11,708 nt of DNA from a virus. Below, piece by piece: positions 1 to 6,470 of the stretch. The stretch lies in the UHGV virus genome UHGV-0100572. The stretch is one strand, 5' to 3'. Both the position numbers and the translations under genes were made by a program. Every line of letters starts with the position of its first letter. Position 1 is the first letter of the stretch. The notes beneath the pieces are model-generated. The model saw only the letters and a list, made by a program, of their open reading frames with translations. It had not been told where the DNA came from and did not search any database.

Positions 1-170
1 TCAGCACGATTATGAACGAGCACGAATGGCCTGCTGACGCTATTGAAGTGCAACTGGCACATGCCAACGGCGGATCTGTGCGTGGGATTTACAACCATGC
101 TCAGTATCTCGATAAACGCAGAGAAATGATGCAGTGGTGGGCTGACTGGATTGATGAAAAGGTGGAGTGA
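1..170 (+). CDS. int: Tyrosine recombinase (phage integrase), C-terminal fragment; 5' end lies outside the window
   Basis: Reading frame entering the window at base 3 translates to ...EWPADAIEVQLAHANGGSVRGIYNHAQYLDKRREMMQWWADWIDEKVE and stops at TGA 168-170. The H...R...Y-x-H pattern resembles the catalytic-tyrosine C-terminus of tyrosine integrases. Assignment is from motif memory only. Confidence 0.6.
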   Translation, partial: STIMNEHEWPADAIEVQLAHANGGSVRGIYNHAQYLDKRREMMQWWADWIDEKVE

Positions 171-194
171 TCCACCTTAACAACTATCGAAGAG

Positions 195-228
195 CACAAA
201 GCCTTGCAATCCAGTGCAAAGCTTTGTG
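195..228. terminator. Imperfect 13-bp inverted repeat (12 of 13 pairs, 8-nt loop) between the convergent integrase and tailspike genes; possible terminator or RNA processing site
   Basis: cacaaagccttgc (195-207) pairs with gcaaagctttgtg (216-228); a T-rich stretch follows on the plus strand (237-244) but not immediately after the stem. Confidence 0.3.
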
Positions 229-260
229 TGTCTCAGTTTTGTTTATCTATAAAAGTTTAT

Positions 261-2822
261 TTATATTTTCTTAATATTATTAATGCACCAACGGAGATAT
301 GCGCACTCTAATACAAGCGCCTCGTCATATCGTATCCCATAGCGATTACCAGCCTTATTTTTAAGTCGTAATTCTCCTGTTTCATATATCTTCTCTATTT
401 GTTCTCCAAATTCATTCACCTCAATTTTTGAGGAAAAAACAGGCTCATAGCTATCATCCCATTCATCGTAACAAAGAATTCCATATGCAAATGGGTCTAT
501 TCCTTCTGATTCAAAGGCTTCTTTTACTCTCTGAGCAATAACTCCGAAATGTATCCTTGCTTTGTCCCCTTTCTCTTTTACAGCATCGGTAAACTTATAC
601 TGCATAAAATTGACTTTACCCCATGCCTTTAAAATCTCCTCAGGAATCTCCTCTTTTTCTATTTTGGCGCGTTCATCAGATGTGTTAATGCTTCCTGTCG
701 AAGCATAAACTTGATTCCAACGTTTCTCAGGTATTCCACAGTTCCCGCCAGAATCATCTGTTGGATAAATATGTTTTCCTGATACTGCATTGCCATCGCT
801 TGTAACCATGAATTTTGTGTTTCCGGATATGCTCTGAACCTGAAAACTAGCATCAGTTTGCGCAAGAATAGATCCTGCAGGCGCTCTCTTAATTCTCGCA
901 TAATTAGGATTGTCAATTGAACCAAGAAGAATTTGTGATTCCTGTTGTGTTGATTCAGATAGTATTCGTAAATCTCCAAATGGCAATTTGGTATTGCTTC
1001 GAGAATCTGCAGAGTTAAACAACATTGTGTCGCCGTAGCGAAGTGTTGTGTATGTCAGAGCAAATGGAGCATGAGACTCGATAATCTCCATTAGCCTGTG
1101 ATTTGTAGTGGCACACAAACCAAAAAATGTATTACTTGTCTGATTAGATGTTATTGGCGTGCCATCTCTCATCCTTACCTTAAACGGGTTTTCTATCATG
1201 CACCCCAAAAATGTATCCCGTGCAGAACGGTCAATTCTCACGCAAAAAGGAGCATCGCTCTGGAATCTGGTTCCTATATAACGATGTCCGTGTATAGCTT
1301 TGCTTACATTTCCTCCCAACCCGTCAATATTAAAAGCTCCGCCTACATCCCAATCAGTTAATGGGTCAGGAGAAGTTTTCATATCAACAAGTCTGCGCTT
1401 GGTATGATGATTAGCCCCAAATATTTGACTATTTATGATAACAAAATCAGAAAATCCACCGGCTCCACGATCATCTGGAATAAGTTTATTTTCTACAGGA
1501 TCATAATAATTTTCATATCCTTCCGGAGCATATGAGTCATGCCCAGGAGCAGGAGAAGCACCAAAGACATTTACCCCCCATAAACCACCAGATGTAAACA
1601 CACGATCAAGAATGCAACCATCACTACCATCACCCCAAATACCTCGTGGATATGAATTACCAGTTCGATAGCTTTTAAATCTACCTGCACCAGAAGGTTG
1701 AGTAACATCGAACCAAATATTTGCTTTTCGATGGTATCCAATAACTGCAATATCAATAAGTTGAGTATTACAACGGCATCCATTAAAAATACCGACATCC
1801 CAATCAGCACCCAAGTTGTCAATGCTGTCTGTGTATTCACCATCAGGGCCACTTTCTGGCGGGTAAACTTTTGTTCTCACTGCAAAGTGCTCTAGCTGAA
1901 CGCCTTCTGCTTGAATATTAATATTTACCGAAATTGCCTCATCCTGAGCATCACCAGAACCTGAGCGATACTTCCGTCTGGTACGTATCCTTTTTGTGCC
2001 AGTACCAACAAACATTAATGTTGAGCAATCAACCCAATTAAATACTGGCCCGATATAATGAGGAACGATACTCCCATTTTCACTATATTGATTAAGTGCC
2101 TGATATCCATATCCCCTCCCGGAACCAATAATTCTTTGACCATGAGTTAGTAGTTCCAGTTCAAGATCACAAATAAATACTCCCTCCGTCAGATAAATAT
2201 GCTTTCCTGTATCAAGAGCAGCTTGTATTGCGAGGCCGTCAATAGATTGTTCCAGTGAAGTAGCAAATGGATAAACCACCCTGGCTAATGATAGAGAAGA
2301 AAATTTCTCTGATAGTTTATGTAATGTCCCGTCACCTATAGCACCGAAATCTCTGATACTTACAAAATCTAGGTTTTTTGAATGTTGACTTCGTTGTATT
2401 GCTCCAGCAAGTGGTTGCTTAATAAATACATTAGAGTCATCAACTAATTGACCAGAGTTTTCATGTTGAAGGAGATGTCGCAGTTGATCGGGGTCATACT
2501 TCAGCACATTCTGGAAATAGAACTGCTGTACGCCATACGCATCGTACACAGCCATAGAATGACCTTGCACAGTTACGAACTTGGCAATCTGTCCGTTATA
2601 TACCGGATATCCAGCAGCGTTAATGATGATTGGTTGCGAAACAGGAACGTGAGAACCGTCTTCGTTCTCCACATAAACCTGAATCTGGTTTTCAGGATTT
2701 ACAGGGTCAGTGTCAATTTTGCCGATATAAATTTTGCCATTGGCTACGGCTTTAAAAGAACGTGCCATAGTGAAGAGTTGCGAAGGCATCGATACGATCA
2801 CATTGGCTGTAATGTCTGTCAT
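261..2822 (-). CDS. Tailspike protein: P22 gp9-like N-terminal head-binding domain, beta-helix depolymerase-like receptor-binding domain, C-terminal peptidase-S74-type intramolecular chaperone domain
   Basis: 853-aa ORF with ATG at 2822-2820 and GGAG 8 nt upstream. Residues 1-113 (MTDITANV...KYDPDQ) closely match the P22 tailspike head-binding domain as I recall it. A DFGAIGDG motif typical of pectate-lyase-fold beta-helix depolymerases lies near residue 160. The C-terminus has a TSDERAK motif (S715/D716) like the auto-cleavage site of endosialidase-type chaperone domains. Confidence 0.9.
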
Positions 2823-2880: not shown

Positions 2881-2903
2881 AAAAAAACCCAGCCGAAGCT
2901 GGG
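2881..2903 (-). terminator. Rho-independent terminator downstream of ant
   Basis: On the minus strand: stem CCCAGC, loop UUCG, stem GCUGGG, followed directly by seven U (plus-strand A-run 2881-2887, stem-loop 2888-2903). It sits 20 nt after the ant stop. Confidence 0.65.
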
Positions 2904-2922
2904 TCGTTGCGTTGGTTATCTG

Positions 2923-3825
2923 TCAGTAGTTATGTACTGAAGGAGGTAATTCTTTATTCTTAAGTCTCATCCATGCGGAAAGATTCGTTGGTCCGTCTGG
3001 CTCATTAATATCAACATCTCGTGTATGGTTGATTAAAACATCTCTCGCCATTCCGATAACATACGAGAACTCATGACCGTAGTCGTAGCATCTGCCGGAA
3101 TAGTTCGATTGAATTTGTTTTAATGCCGGATACAGTTCGCGGAATAATGCCTGTGAGCGGTTGGCATAATCCCATAACCATACAAGGCTGTTTGCTTCTT
3201 TTGCAGAAAGCTCGTTTGCTTTCTTCTCTTGCTTGCCGATGAACTCACCTTCAAGCACTACCCTGTGGATGTACTCTACTGCTTGCGGTATCTGAGATGC
3301 ATCAAGCTCTTCAATACTTTCCACATTGAAACGCTGATGAATCATTGCATAAGCTTCTGGGTACATTAGATGCTTTTTGCTGACCAGCATATTTACAGCA
3401 TCACGAAGCGGAGTCCTGTCATCAACAGATGTTTTCTTACGTGCATTTTCTGCCTTTCCCTTCGTCCAGTAGTCATGCAGCACAGTAAAGCATTCTTCCT
3501 GGTACTGAATCAGTTTATCACGGATGTCAGCACGAACTTTCTCAGGGTTGATGCTGAACAGCCATCCATTTAACTTCTTCAAAGGAAGGCAGAGTAGCTT
3601 ACGAAGCTTACCATCAGCGGCAACCATGTTCATATGAACACAGTTGAATTTGCTAATCTGCTTCATGAGTTTTGTTTGCTGCGTTGACCAGCTCATTCCG
3701 AGGTTTTCAACGATTGGCTTCATCGCAACATATGCAACTCCGGCAGCCATGGCGGTGATAATTTGCTGACCGTTGAATGGCACGTAAGAGGTGTTCACTG
3801 CTTCTAAAATTGCTATACTATTCAT
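2923..3825 (-). CDS. ant: Antirepressor Ant (P22 immI antirepressor family)
   Basis: 300 aa from ATG 3825-3823 ([22 protein letters not shown]...), with GGAG 10 nt upstream. The N-terminus matches P22 Ant as I recall it. The ORF-track start at 3855 is a TTG adding 10 residues and is less likely. Gene order arc-ant-tailspike is as in P22. Confidence 0.85.
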
Positions 3826-3896
3826 GTTGGTTTTTCTCCAAGGATTTACCGACAACCGAAGCCCTAACTGTTACCGCAGTTGGGGCTTCAACTTTT
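3826..3896 (+). ncRNA. sar: Candidate sar-like antisense RNA covering the ant ribosome-binding site
   Basis: Extended -10-like TGcTATACT at 3811-3819 on the plus strand, inside the first ant codons. About 60-70 nt downstream is a hairpin (3858-3868 pairs with 3879-3889, one G-U pair) followed by aacuuuu. The predicted transcript is antisense to the ant GGAG and start codon. P22 encodes a 68-69 nt sar RNA at the equivalent place. Confidence 0.4.
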
Positions 3897-4357: not shown

Positions 4358-4612
4358 ATGGCTAGAGACGATCCGCACTTTAACTTCCGTATGCCTTTGG
4401 AAGTAAGAGAAAAATTGAAATTAAGAGCAGAGGCTAACGGAAGGTCAATGAACTCTGAGTTATTACAAATCGTTCAGGATGCTCTCTCAAAGCCATCATC
4501 AATTGTAGGCTATCGAGACGAAGCTGAGCGAGTCGCGGATGAGCAATCTGACGTTGTTAAGAAGATGGTCTTTGAAACGCTGAAAAATATTTATAGCAAA
4601 AGTAAGTTATAG
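4358..4612 (+). CDS. mnt: Mnt repressor (maintenance of lysogeny, represses Pant)
   Basis: 84 aa, MARDDPHFNFRMPLEVREKLKLRAEANGRSMNSELLQIVQDALSK..., near-identical to P22 Mnt as recalled. Divergent from arc with the two operators between. Confidence 0.9.
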   Translation: MARDDPHFNFRMPLEVREKLKLRAEANGRSMNSELLQIVQDALSKPSSIVGYRDEAERVADEQSDVVKKMVFETLKNIYSKSKL

Positions 4613-4661: not shown

Positions 4662-5381
4662 ATGAAAAAAAGCAATGGACTCACATTAAAACTTGACGGA
4701 ACCACCCCTGGCCAGCTGTCAATGGCTAAGTTGGTCAAGTATATGTCTGCTCTCGTAGATCTATACGGTTCTGCAGATTCTGTTCACTTCGACTGTGTAA
4801 GTGAAGGATCGGCTGACTTAAATGCATGGGTCGATAATGATATTTGTTATAACGCTGTCATAGCAAGGGCCTCTCTCTCAGCCAAAGAGAAATCACCCGC
4901 GTATCAAAAAATTGTTAATTTACTGGAACATGATGGTTTTTCAGCGAAACTACTCGGACGAAACCACTCAACCATTATCGCATTCCCGCGAGTAAAAAAG
5001 GAGCCAATCCCTTTACTCATAACAAAAACGTCAGAAGTTCAAGGAAGGCTATACAGTGTTGGCGGAAAAGACAACTCAATACCTGTGCGTATTGAGGGAG
5101 CCAACGGTGAAACATTCAAGTGCGAGGCAACCCCTGATTTGGCGGCAGCTCTTGGGTCCCATCTATTCAAATATATTAGGGTTAAAGGAGATGGGTGCTG
5201 GGAAAAAAAGAACAACAAATGGGAGCTAAAGAAACTAAAAATAACTTCATTTGTATTGCTCAAAAAATCATCACTCAAGGATGCTATTAATGCTATCAAG
5301 CAAGTTCCTGGAGATCAGTGGTCCGAGGAACGCGATGTTGATTCAATCCTTAGGACTCTGAGGAAGATAAATTGCGAGTAA
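4662..5381 (+). CDS. Hypothetical protein, 239 aa; upstream partner of the PIN-domain gene
   Basis: ATG-initiated ORF 49 bp after mnt. No recognisable motif (no Walker A, no hydrophobic segments). Its last 10 nt overlap the next ORF. AT-rich relative to the flanking late genes, by eye. Confidence 0.65.
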   Translation: MKKSNGLTLKLDGTTPGQLSMAKLVKYMSALVDLYGSADSVHFDCVSEGSADLNAWVDNDICYNAVIARASLSAKEKSPAYQKIVNLLEHDGFSAKLLGRNHSTIIAFPRVKKEPIPLLITKTSEVQGRLYSVGGKDNSIPVRIEGANGETFKCEATPDLAAALGSHLFKYIRVKGDGCWEKKNNKWELKKLKITSFVLLKKSSLKDAINAIKQVPGDQWSEERDVDSILRTLRKINCE

Positions 5382-5920
5382 TTTTAGATACCAATATTCT
5401 GGTATACCTACTATCAGATATAGAACACGATTATAGATTATCTGACCCTATACTTGGTTCTGAGATTCCAGATGCCAAAAGAAGAGCAGAAGCTCTTGTT
5501 GATCGAATAGATAACAAGAACGGGACAATCATCGTTCCAACTCCTGTATTGGCGGAGTTTTTAGTTGGAATCCATAAAGATTACCAACAAGAAAAACTGA
5601 ATGTTATCAAATCGTTATCGTGCTTCGAGACTGTATCATTTGATGAGTTGGCTGCTATTGAATGCGCATCGATACCAACATTAAAAGAATTAAGGAAAAT
5701 TAGCACAGAAGGTACAGCAAATAAAATTAAGTTTGACAGACAAATAATAGCAATTGCAAGAGCAATTAATGCTGACGAGGTATGGACTCATGATAAGGGA
5801 GTGTTTGAGCGTTGCAAAAGTCTCAATATTCCTGTGTTCACATTGTCATCAATAGAACCAATTCCGGTTCAAAGTCTCATGGAGTTCTTACACGATTCAG
5901 ACGATCAGAGATTACACTAA
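5372..5920 (+). CDS. PIN-domain protein (VapC-like putative ribonuclease), 182 aa
   Basis: N-terminus MRVILDTNILVYLL with the hallmark acidic residue at position 6. Further candidate acidic residues in VLAEFL and NADEVWTHDKG. TTG start at 5372 preceded by GAGGAAG with a 5-nt spacer. There is no in-frame ATG that would preserve the PIN N-terminus. Confidence 0.7.
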   Translation: MRVILDTNILVYLLSDIEHDYRLSDPILGSEIPDAKRRAEALVDRIDNKNGTIIVPTPVLAEFLVGIHKDYQQEKLNVIKSLSCFETVSFDELAAIECASIPTLKELRKISTEGTANKIKFDRQIIAIARAINADEVWTHDKGVFERCKSLNIPVFTLSSIEPIPVQSLMEFLHDSDDQRLH

Positions 5921-5935
5921 AATATAATTTTTATG

Positions 5936-5964
5936 CATCCGTGATAATTACATCCGTCACGGAT
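5936..5964. promoter_or_regulatory. Inverted-repeat and palindrome cluster upstream of the third cassette gene; candidate operator
   Basis: atccgtga (5937-5944) and tcacggat (5957-5964) are inverted repeats. atccgtcacggat (5952-5964) is a 13-bp palindrome. The motif CATCCGT occurs at 5936 and 5951, and again at 6478 downstream of the gene. Confidence 0.3.
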
Positions 5965-5984
5965 ACATAAAGCTATAGCCAAAA

Positions 5985-6470
5985 GTGGACAAACCTTTAT
6001 CTCACTCCAAACCATCTGGTATCCTGCGTAAAACTAAGGAGGTTGGTGTGTTTGGTATATTAACGAGAAGCAAGATAAAAAAATTAAGGGCAGAACTCGC
6101 CGAAACACAAAAACTGGCTTCACATTTTTACAAAATGAAATACGACGCTGAAGAGCGTGCATTTGTTGAGTTATGCGATTTATCTATTCGTATGGGAGTA
6201 GAGCCAGATGTAGCGGCAAAAACCCAACAAGGCATTGATATACTTGCAGATGTTGTTTTAAACAGGCAATATGCGTTTTATCTAAACGAGAAGGCCATTC
6301 AGATTTACTCTCAAATCTTCCTCCTAGAAAAAAGAAGAGGAACTCACGATCGAGAAGAGTGGTTAAATGAAGTTGTTAAAAAATCTGGCTGGGAAGTTGT
6401 TTCATCAGAGCTACCTCTTATTTGTGCTGATTTAATCGAAGAGGCAAAAGAGCGCCTATCCGATGGCTAA
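5985..6470 (+). CDS. Hypothetical protein, 140-161 aa depending on start
   Basis: ORF track starts at GTG 5985. An in-frame GTG at 6048 has a strong AAGGAGG Shine-Dalgarno 5 nt upstream and is the more likely start (6048-6470). No recognisable motif and no transmembrane segment. Stop at 6468-6470, 25 bp from the convergent gp16 stop. Confidence 0.6.
   Translation: MDKPLSHSKPSGILRKTKEVGVFGILTRSKIKKLRAELAETQKLASHFYKMKYDAEERAFVELCDLSIRMGVEPDVAAKTQQGIDILADVVLNRQYAFYLNEKAIQIYSQIFLLEKRRGTHDREEWLNEVVKKSGWEVVSSELPLICADLIEEAKERLSDG

What the first reader, a model, noticed from the sequence alone, without database searches (positions are those of the whole stretch)
1..260. Integrase 3' end converges on the tailspike gene across a 90-bp structured spacer
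An integrase gene ending at 170 faces the tailspike gene ending at 261. In an integrated P22-like prophage, int and the tailspike lie at opposite ends, so this arrangement suggests either the circular or virion form of the genome (with attP nearby) or a second integrative element abutting the prophage. The spacer holds a perfect 6-bp hairpin spanning the int stop codon (ggtgga gtga tccacc, 161-176) and a 13-bp imperfect hairpin (195-228). These could act as a terminator or as a sib-like RNase III site for retroregulation of int, as in lambda. I see no tRNA-like 3' fragment that would mark an att core.
Basis: inference. Interest (0 to 1): 0.4.

Follow-up and report, generated by a model that had tools for sequence, protein, structure and literature searches.

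The report
Ordinary integrase–tailspike junction with terminator
This is the normal left end of a P22-like prophage integrated in the E. coli argW tRNA gene: the integrase gene ends in an already-annotated terminator hairpin directly beside the tailspike gene, so the layout is ordinary and says nothing unusual about the phage's state.

Summary
An IntS-type integrase gene ends at 170 and the tailspike gene (minus strand) ends at 261. The 90-bp spacer holds two real hairpins: 159-178, 8 bp with the stop codon in its loop, and 195-228, 13 bp.

The main inference is wrong. This phage belongs to the Sf6/HK620/CUS-3/KplE1 subgroup, where attP lies upstream of int, between int and xis. P22 itself has attP downstream of int. 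In this subgroup int and the tailspike are therefore neighbours in both the prophage and the virion form.

A contig that differs from the window at 3 of 11,708 bases shows yfdC, then argW tRNA-Arg with the attL core, then the complete int, then the convergent tailspike. The window is thus the int end of an argW-integrated prophage, and no boundary lies in 170-261.

Hairpin 2 plus its U-tract is the homologue of the HK620 feature annotated 'terminator for prophage excision transcript'. It occurs in about 60% of distinct int 3' ends sampled and also in E. coli K-12. It marks the point where different tailspike or moron cassettes are joined.

Lambda-type sib logic does not apply, because attP does not separate the hairpin from int. 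Covariation was not significant, and no experimental 3'-end data were found. Verdict: already known, low interest.

The parts
1..170 (+). 3' end (last 55 codons plus TGA at 168-170) of an IntS/CPS-53/Sf6/HK620-type tyrosine integrase. The full gene would span window coordinates -987 to 170.
   Evidence: Translation. Pfam Phage_integrase C-terminus. 94-99% nt identity to HK620, Sf6, CUS-3 int and E. coli intS. The full 385-aa gene is seen in contig L130, which has 3 mismatches to the window.
159..178 (.). Hairpin 1: 8-bp stem AAGGTGGA/TCCACCTT with loop GTGA that contains the int stop codon. On the - strand it is followed by UUUUCAUCAAU.
   Evidence: Folds (z -4.7 and -3.8). A stem of at least 6 bp spans the stop codon in 43 of 90 distinct int 3' ends, against 21% in a shuffled control. 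Independent loop and inner-pair variants occur: GGTGGCA[taa]TGCCACC, GGTGGC[atagc]GCCACC, GGGGA[gtaa]TCCCC.
191..246 (+). Predicted intrinsic terminator of int transcription. Hairpin 2 is at 195-228 (CACAAAGC-c-TTGCA / loop ATCCAG / TGCAA-a-GCTTTGTG). The outer extension pairs 191-194 with 229-233. A U-rich tract UUUUGUUU follows at 237-244.
   Evidence: Folds. Collinear with the HK620 feature 'terminator for prophage excision transcript; XIS' at record 38289..23. Present in 64 of 108 distinct int 3' ends from IMG/VR and phage records and downstream of intS in E. coli K-12.
195..228 (-). The same palindrome read on the tailspike (late-operon) strand: 14 continuous pairs, -20.8 kcal/mol, followed by CUCUUCGAUAG with no good U-tract. 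Together with hairpin 1 on this strand it is the only structure available to stop late transcription before it runs antisense into int.
   Evidence: No other terminator-like site between 261 and 1. The function is an inference.
242..260 (.). Mosaic junction: similarity to all other intS modules ends here, just before the tailspike stop codon.
   Evidence: Matches end at 242-255 in phages and in 2,681 E. coli genomes, and none continues into the tailspike. Alignment A1 diverges after the U-tract.
261..2822 (-). Tailspike gene (853 aa). It has a P22-type head-binding domain, a rare central receptor-binding part and a C-terminal S74 intramolecular-chaperone domain.
   Evidence: Only the head-binding part (about 2476-2822) is shared with other loci. 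The receptor part is at most about 41% identical to anything in 50,697 phage records and is absent from 5,426 complete E. coli genomes at megablast level.

Best explanation
The window starts inside the integrase gene at the attL (argW) end of an integrated P22-like (Lederbergvirus) prophage. The prophage carries the KplE1/Sf6/HK620/CUS-3-type recombination module.

In this module attP lies between xis and int, upstream of int. Integration therefore puts int at one prophage end, reading inward from a promoter that overlaps attL. The next phage DNA it meets is the end of the late operon, the tailspike gene, which reads towards it. The convergent int/tailspike layout is the same in prophage, circular and virion forms. 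It carries no information on integration state.

The 90-bp spacer is the conserved tail of the int module. Hairpin 2 plus its U-tract is the int intrinsic terminator. It stops transcripts from the int promoters from running antisense into the tailspike gene; this function is inferred and annotated but not demonstrated. Hairpin 1, which spans the stop codon, together with the same palindrome read on the other strand, probably stops late-operon transcripts before they run antisense through int and attL into argW. This is inference, about 40% likely.

The end of the U-tract is the joint at which different tailspike or O-antigen-modification cassettes have been recombined next to the same int module.
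For: Shown here.
(1) Contigs carrying exactly this tailspike show yfdC, tRNA-Arg(CCU), a 385-aa int, the convergent tailspike, and then ant/arc/mnt and gp16/20/7. Host genes mlaA, fadL and fadIJ lie beyond yfdC.
(2) Contig L130 differs from the window at 3 of 11,708 positions. It places argW at window coordinates -1223 to -1149, the attL core CTGCAGGGGACACCA at -1163, and int at -987 to 170.
(3) The HK620 and Sf6 records annotate the attP core upstream of int. CUS-3 has the attL core beside int and the attR core at the far end.
(4) The prophage-form records ON470589 and CP025913, and the remnant prophage in CP080146, all show argW, intS, an optional moron and a convergent tailspike or tail fibre.
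(5) Hairpin 2 is collinear with HK620's annotated terminator.
(6) Both hairpins fold far better than shuffles.
(7) Hairpin 2 is present in 64 of 108 distinct int 3' ends. In 38 of 62 of these loci the next ORF is convergent, often a 570-900-aa tailspike only 6-60 nt after the hairpin.
(8) Where hairpin 2 is absent, unrelated hairpins often occupy the same place. Examples are L012 GCAAGGCCTG...CAGGCCTTGC, L024 AGCCCTTACA...TGTAAGGGCT and L092 GGCAGGC...GCCTGCC.

Against: Terminator function is predicted only. The consensus scan did not flag either hairpin. The U-tract begins 3 nt after an extended stem and is interrupted.

Pairing is kept in 86% of cells, but covariation is no better than column shuffles: 34 of 500 shuffles reach the observed paired percentage, and only 8 cells show double changes. 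Conservation could therefore be simple descent.

No 3' end at intS was found in two held Term-seq supplement sets.

On the - strand, hairpin 2 lacks a U-tract. Hairpin 1 is degraded in many relatives and is not significantly more intact when a convergent gene follows (59% against 41%, p = 0.38).

Confidence: 0.85

Rival explanations
1. One reading: the junction reflects the circular or virion form of the genome, with attP in or near the spacer.
For: In P22 itself the tailspike and int converge only in the circular map, with gtrABC and attP between them. The window alone cannot show what lies upstream of int.
Against: The attP core and argW k-mers are absent from the window and no tRNA fragment is present. 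In this int family the attP core lies upstream of int. Contigs with 3 mismatches to the window are integrated at argW. The same junction is present in prophage-form records.
Confidence: 0.02
2. One reading: int belongs to a second integrative element (for example a KplE1-like remnant) that abuts an independent P22-like prophage, with a boundary between 170 and 261.
For: Sequence similarity to other intS modules stops at 242-255, so a mosaic joint does lie in the spacer. Host genes do lie just beyond a complete int.
Against: The virion-derived complete genomes of HK620 and Sf6 contain this int next to the tailspike region. CUS-3 has attL beside int and attR at the far end of the same 40-kb element. 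No att-core repeat lies in the spacer. Only chance 11-mers are shared between the spacer and the rest of the 22.5-kb contig L130. The joint is a homologous or illegitimate recombination scar between phage modules, seen with dozens of different tailspikes.
Confidence: 0.02
3. sib-like retroregulation: read-through (N-antiterminated) transcripts form an RNase III substrate at hairpin 2, and int mRNA is then degraded from its 3' end, as at lambda sib/tI.
For: The hairpin is long (13-17 bp with an internal mismatch) and sits immediately 3' of int, overlapping a terminator as sib overlaps tI. After infection, in the circular form, PL transcripts could pass through xis, attP and int into this site. 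This last point is inference.
Against: The defining lambda logic is absent: attP lies upstream of int, so integration does not uncouple the hairpin from int. Sequence 3' of the U-tract differs in almost every relative, so no conserved extended read-through stem can exist. Panis et al. show that this module controls the Int/RDF ratio by IntS and TorI repression of the attL-overlapping promoter, and they propose this as the substitute for sib (PMC2951348). No fold extends the stem beyond 191-233.
Confidence: 0.06
4. The hairpins have no transcriptional role. They are inherited palindromic 'boundary sequence' DNA, conserved by descent and acting only as recombination linkers between modules.
For: Covariation is not above shuffles. 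Symmetric deletions of the hairpin tip (CUS-3, N7, L022: CACAAAGCCTTGTG) and an inverted loop (L079) are typical DNA-palindrome behaviour. Breakpoints of similarity cluster at the hairpins: Sf6 at 163, VT2phi_272 at 168, CUS-3 and N7 at 206, others at 242-255.
Against: Non-homologous hairpins replace hairpin 2 at the same position in other int 3' ends. The shortened variants still keep a hairpin plus U-tract (N7, L022). A few true compensatory changes exist (G-C to U-A at columns 60/81, C-G to U-A at 66/75). A U-tract follows the stem in most copies.
Confidence: 0.1

Closest known systems
Coliphage HK620 int-distal terminator (AF335538 feature 38289..23, 'terminator for prophage excision transcript; XIS')
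   Same: The feature is homologous. Window 1-218 aligns at 95% identity to HK620 1-219, and the remaining arm continues at the other end of the circular record. It has the same position immediately 3' of the same int, and the same hairpin followed by a U-tract.
   Different: In HK620 the left arm is weaker (ACAAAAC against CACAAAGC). What follows is an O-antigen modification gene in the same orientation as int, then tR', then gene 9. Here the tailspike stop codon lies 33 nt after the hairpin, with no moron and no separate late terminator.
KplE1 (CPS-53)/Sf6/CUS-3/Kapi1 argW recombination module
   Same: Same integrase, same argW attL core, and same tRNA-then-int orientation with int reading into the prophage. 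The tailspike or a moron is the next gene.
   Different: Sf6 shares int only up to position 163 and has different downstream sequence followed by oac. CUS-3 has a tip-deleted hairpin 2 followed by neuO. K-12 has gtrABS. The window has no moron.
Phage lambda tI terminator / sib retroregulator
   Same: A hairpin immediately distal to int that can end int transcripts.
   Different: In lambda, attP lies between int and sib, so integration removes sib from int. Here attP is on the other side of int. There is no sequence similarity, and no conserved read-through extension.
Phage P22 int-attP-gtrABC-gene 9 region
   Same: P22-like virion genes, the immI region with sar RNA, and a tailspike that converges on int in the circular map.
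   Different: P22 has a different integrase module, with attP downstream of int. In the P22 prophage int and gene 9 therefore lie at opposite ends.

Membership tests
KplE1/Sf6/HK620-type (IntS, argW) recombination module | Tyrosine integrase homologous to IntS | tested here: met
   Window 1-170 is 94-99% identical to HK620, Sf6, CUS-3 int and E. coli intS. Pfam Phage_integrase C-terminus. The full 385-aa gene with Arm-DNA-bind_3, Phage_int_M and Phage_integrase domains is in the near-identical contig.
KplE1/Sf6/HK620-type (IntS, argW) recombination module | Integrated at the 3' end of argW, with tRNA and int in the same orientation and the attL core between them | tested here: met
   In L130 (3 mismatches to the window) tRNA-Arg(CCU) is at -1223 to -1149, the core CTGCAGGGGACACCA at -1163, and the int start at -987. 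This lies outside the window itself.
KplE1/Sf6/HK620-type (IntS, argW) recombination module | attP lies between int and xis, so int and xis end up at opposite prophage ends | not testable with these tools
   This is shown for the relatives HK620, Sf6 and CUS-3 and stated in PMC8787464. The attR/xis end of this particular prophage is more than 20 kb beyond what could be fetched.
Rho-independent (intrinsic) terminator | Stable stem-loop directly followed by a U-rich tract on the transcribed strand | tested here: inconclusive
   On the + strand the stem 191-233 (-19.9 kcal/mol) is followed by CAG and then UUUUGUUU. The stem is AU-rich, and the consensus scan did not call it. On the - strand, hairpin 1 is followed by UUUUCAUC, while hairpin 2 lacks a U-tract.
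Rho-independent (intrinsic) terminator | Transcript 3' ends map to the U-tract | not testable with these tools
   No intS 3' end was found in the held supplements of two E. coli Term-seq papers. A third paper had no supplements held as text.
Lambda sib-type retroregulator | Site lies beyond attP relative to int, so that integration uncouples it from int | tested here: not met
   The attP/attL core lies upstream of int. The hairpin stays attached to int in the prophage.
Lambda sib-type retroregulator | Read-through transcript forms an extended duplex cleaved by RNase III | not testable with these tools
   No extended stem appears in the folds, and the 3' flank is not conserved. Cleavage itself needs an experiment.
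P22-like phage (Lederbergvirus) | Tailspike with P22 head-binding domain, gp7/gp20/gp16 ejection proteins, and immI (mnt-arc-ant with sar RNA) | tested here: met
   Head_binding, P22_AR_N/C, and Arc plus Repressor_Mnt domains. sar RNA at 95.5 bits. P22_gp7, Inj_translocase and Phage_P22_gp16. 83-94% nt identity to HK620, CUS-3, P22 and epsilon34.

The most novel reading that the evidence does not exclude
The roughly 90-nt int-distal element (hairpin 1 spanning the stop codon, plus hairpin 2 and its U-tract) may be a selected two-way transcriptional insulator and cassette-exchange linker. On the + strand it would end int transcripts. On the - strand it would stop Q-antiterminated late transcripts from running antisense through int and attL into argW. 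Its conserved sequence, paired with the conserved tailspike head-binding domain on the other side, would provide the homology arms through which tailspike and O-antigen-modification cassettes are swapped among argW prophages. Hairpin 1 has not been annotated in any record seen here.
Probability: 0.2. Interest if true: 0.25.

Novelty: already known. Interest (0 to 1): 0.07.

Why it matters
It matters mainly as a correction. For P22-like phages with the IntS/argW module, an int gene facing the tailspike gene is the default layout. It should not be read as evidence for an excised genome, a nearby attP or a tandem element.

The spacer is a useful landmark. The conserved int terminator marks the fixed side of the tailspike/moron exchange site, which helps when delimiting prophage ends and host-range cassettes in E. 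coli and Shigella genomes.

There is no new biology, unless the stop-codon hairpin proves to be a functional antisense terminator.

Tried and rejected
(1) Covariation test on 64 distinct homologues (alignment A1). Pairing was 86%, but the measures were no better than column shuffles. I therefore make no covariation claim.

(2) Rfam. Nothing meaningful in 1-400 (best E-value 2.5, far below gathering scores). The only real hit in the window is sar RNA.

(3) The consensus terminator scan called neither hairpin. My own crude hairpin-plus-U scan found terminator-like sites downstream of 55 of 109 int 3' ends, against 17 of 109 in shuffles. It is too coarse to weigh heavily, and it clipped hairpin 2 to fit a tail.

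(4) Test of whether hairpin 1 is more intact when a convergent gene follows. The trend (59% against 41%) was not significant, p = 0.38.

(5) Search for an att core, argW k-mers or direct repeats in the spacer. None were found.

(6) Term-seq supplements searched for an intS 3' end. Nothing was found in two papers, and a third had no supplements held as text.

(7) A first tblastn call failed on a frame error and was repeated.

(8) The original HK620 and Sf6 genome papers (J Mol Biol 2001 and 2004) did not come up in my literature searches and I did not try to open them. Their view is therefore taken only from the GenBank feature tables.

(9) Walking to attR of this prophage was not possible, because only window-encoded proteins can be looked up and they reach at most about 22 kb from int.

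Full report
OBSERVATION

The + strand reads in frame to a TGA at 168-170. It encodes the last 55 residues of a tyrosine integrase. An 853-aa ORF on the - strand occupies 261-2822. It has a P22 head-binding domain and a C-terminal S74 chaperone domain, so it is a tailspike. The spacer is 171-260, 90 bp.

The large hairpin is at 195-228. It has 13 pairs and one C/A mismatch on the + strand. On the - strand it has 14 continuous pairs, because the mismatch becomes G-U.

Both hairpins fold much better than dinucleotide shuffles. Individual z-scores run from -3.8 to -5.3. The whole spacer scores -4.7 on the + strand and -6.6 on the - strand. ARAGORN finds no tRNA in the window.

WHAT THE INT IS, AND WHERE ITS ATT SITE LIES

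Window 1-250 matches the 3' end of int, and the sequence just after it, in HK620, Sf6, CUS-3, N7, IME10 and others at 92-97% identity. It matches intS in 2,681 of 5,426 complete E. coli genomes at up to 99.2% identity.

In the HK620 and Sf6 records the attP core (CTGCAGGGGACACCAT, the 3' end of argW) is annotated upstream of int, between int and the small hkaB/hkaC genes. In the CUS-3 prophage record the attL core lies immediately upstream of int and the attR core is at the far end.

Two papers describe this arrangement. The Kapi1 paper says that, as in Sf6, HK620 and KplE1, attP lies between int and xis, so int and xis end up at opposite prophage ends (PMC8787464). Panis et al. show that intS is transcribed from its own promoter overlapping attL. 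They also report that tRNA followed by an integrase in the same orientation is the commonest arrangement (PMC2951348).

P22 proper is different. Its map reads gene 9, gtrC-B-A, a 349-bp gap, int, xis. By established knowledge attP lies in that gap, downstream of int.

DIRECT TEST ON THE FLANKS

A look-up of the exact tailspike protein found 18 contigs. In the long ones the order is gp16, a small cassette, mnt/arc/ant, the tailspike, then a convergent 385-aa integrase, then Form_Nir_trans (yfdC), MlaA, FadL and FadI/J.

ARAGORN finds tRNA-Arg(CCU) between int and yfdC. Contig L130 (NCBI GCA_048600925.1) differs from the window at 3 of 11,708 positions. In window coordinates it places argW at -1223 to -1149, the att core once at -1163, and int at -987 to 170.

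The window is therefore the int end of a prophage integrated at argW. No att core, argW k-mer or meaningful direct repeat lies in the spacer.

The same int-then-convergent-tailspike layout occurs in other prophage-form records. It is even preserved in a decayed remnant prophage.

WHAT THE SPACER IS

HK620 annotates a 'terminator for prophage excision transcript; XIS' at record 38289..23. After joining the two ends of the circular record, this feature is collinear with window hairpin 2.

On the + strand the stem can extend to 191-233 (-19.9 kcal/mol). It is followed by CAG and then UUUUGUUU. E. coli K-12 has the same element between intS and yfdG/gtrA.

I collected 120 IMG/VR loci that share a 26-nt motif in the int 3' end. 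Of 108 distinct downstream sequences, 64 carry the hairpin 2 family. Similarity among them ends just after the U-tract.

In 38 of 62 of these loci the next ORF is convergent. It is often a 570-900-aa tailspike whose stop codon lies only 6-60 nt past the hairpin. The window's tight junction is thus one of many independent joins of different tailspike cassettes to the same int module. Where hairpin 2 is missing, unrelated hairpins often sit in the same place (L012, L024, L092). Tip-deleted versions (CUS-3, N7, L022) remain hairpins.

LIMITS OF THE STRUCTURAL EVIDENCE

On the 64-sequence alignment 86% of cells pair. The covariation measures, however, are no better than column shuffles. Only 8 cells have changes on both sides. 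The structure is supported by conservation, by replacement with analogous hairpins and by thermodynamics, but not by statistically significant covariation.

The consensus terminator scan did not flag either hairpin. No experimental 3' end for intS was found in the Term-seq supplements I could search. Terminator function therefore remains a well-founded prediction.

HAIRPIN 1

A stem of at least 6 bp spanning the int stop codon occurs in 43 of 90 distinct stop regions, against 21% when the 3' part is shuffled.

The outer arms AAGGTGG/CCACCTT are retained even when everything further downstream is unrelated. The loops and inner pairs differ: GGTGGCA[taa]TGCCACC, GGTGGC[atagc]GCCACC and GGTGGTG[taa]CGCCACC. 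An unrelated C-terminus has GGGGA[gtaa]TCCCC.

On the - strand hairpin 1 is followed by UUUUCAUCAAU, and the U's are encoded by the int codons GAA AAG. In the window no other structure lies between the tailspike stop and int. Hairpin 2 and hairpin 1 read on the - strand are therefore the only candidates for ending late transcription.

I rate this two-way role at about 40%. Hairpin 1 is degraded in many relatives (CUS-3, 611R6, K-12). It is not significantly more intact when a convergent gene follows.

THE SIB IDEA

Lambda retroregulation depends on attP lying between int and sib. Here the hairpin stays attached to int in the prophage, so that defining feature is not met.

The sequence 3' of the U-tract differs in nearly every relative, so a conserved read-through duplex cannot exist. 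The literature attributes control of the Int/RDF ratio in this module to repression of the attL-overlapping promoter by IntS and TorI. RNase III cleavage itself cannot be excluded in silico. I give it about 6%.

VERDICT

The principal interpretation is incorrect, and the terminator guess is correct but was already annotated in HK620. The feature is a known, widespread and ordinary part of argW-integrating P22-like prophages. Novelty: already known. Interest: low.

Noticed in passing
window 3826-3893 (+): sar antisense RNA (Rfam RF00262, 95.5 bits) lies in an immI region. ant is at 2923-3855 (-). An 84-aa protein at 4358-4612 (+) carries Arc and Repressor_Mnt domains, so it is mnt. An arc-like ORF lies between them.
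   Followed up: partly
window 4662-6470 (+): A three-gene cassette lies between mnt and gp16, on the strand opposite to the late genes. It encodes a 239-aa protein with no Pfam hit, a 182-aa PIN-domain protein that overlaps it by 10 nt, and a 140-161-aa protein with no Pfam hit. A sister prophage with the same tailspike (L131) has a different cassette at this spot (a P63C-domain protein). This looks like a variable moron or defence/toxin slot.
   Followed up: no
window 264-2400 (-), tailspike residues about 140-853: The receptor-binding part of the tailspike is rare. It is at most about 41% identical (partial coverage) to anything in 50,697 phage records. It is absent at megablast level from 5,426 complete E. 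coli genomes. The exact protein nevertheless occurs on 18 assembled contigs. It ends in a Peptidase_S74 intramolecular chaperone domain, as endosialidase tailspikes do.
   Followed up: partly
window 2886-2905 (-): A canonical terminator-like site (GACCCAGC-TTCG-GCTGGGTT followed by TTTTTAT) lies between ant and the tailspike start codon at 2822. This is upstream of the tailspike gene, on its own strand.
   Followed up: no
L113 (IMGVR_UViG_2856068565-series locus), int 3' end: The int C-terminus is replaced after ...CTTGATGG by about 8 tandem copies of the 8-nt unit TTTAATAG/GTTTAATA. This recalls the heptanucleotide phase-variation repeats of neuO, which lies next to int in CUS-3.
   Followed up: no
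L079 and L030 (IMG/VR loci), int 3' end: In L079 the loop of hairpin 2 is inverted (CTGGAT instead of ATCCAG) between intact arms. In L030 the palindrome around the int stop codon extends to 17 bp (ATTGATGAAAAGGTGGA gtga TCCACCTTTTCATCAAT). Both look like DNA-level palindrome rearrangements.
   Followed up: no
L007 (phage HK633, JQ086377), locus 1501-1846: This lambda-like siphovirus carries the same int and hairpin 2. It has lost the int stop codon, so int is 8 codons longer and hairpin 1 is gone. Its record annotates an attP downstream of int, by similarity to the ykgJ-yagV intergenic region. That conflicts with the upstream attP of HK620 and Sf6.
   Followed up: no
L134 (ENA metagenome scaffold, 14 mismatches to the window): The contig ends inside argW, 215 bp upstream of int. 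This is expected when integrated and empty or excised forms coexist in a metagenome and break the assembly at attL.
   Followed up: no
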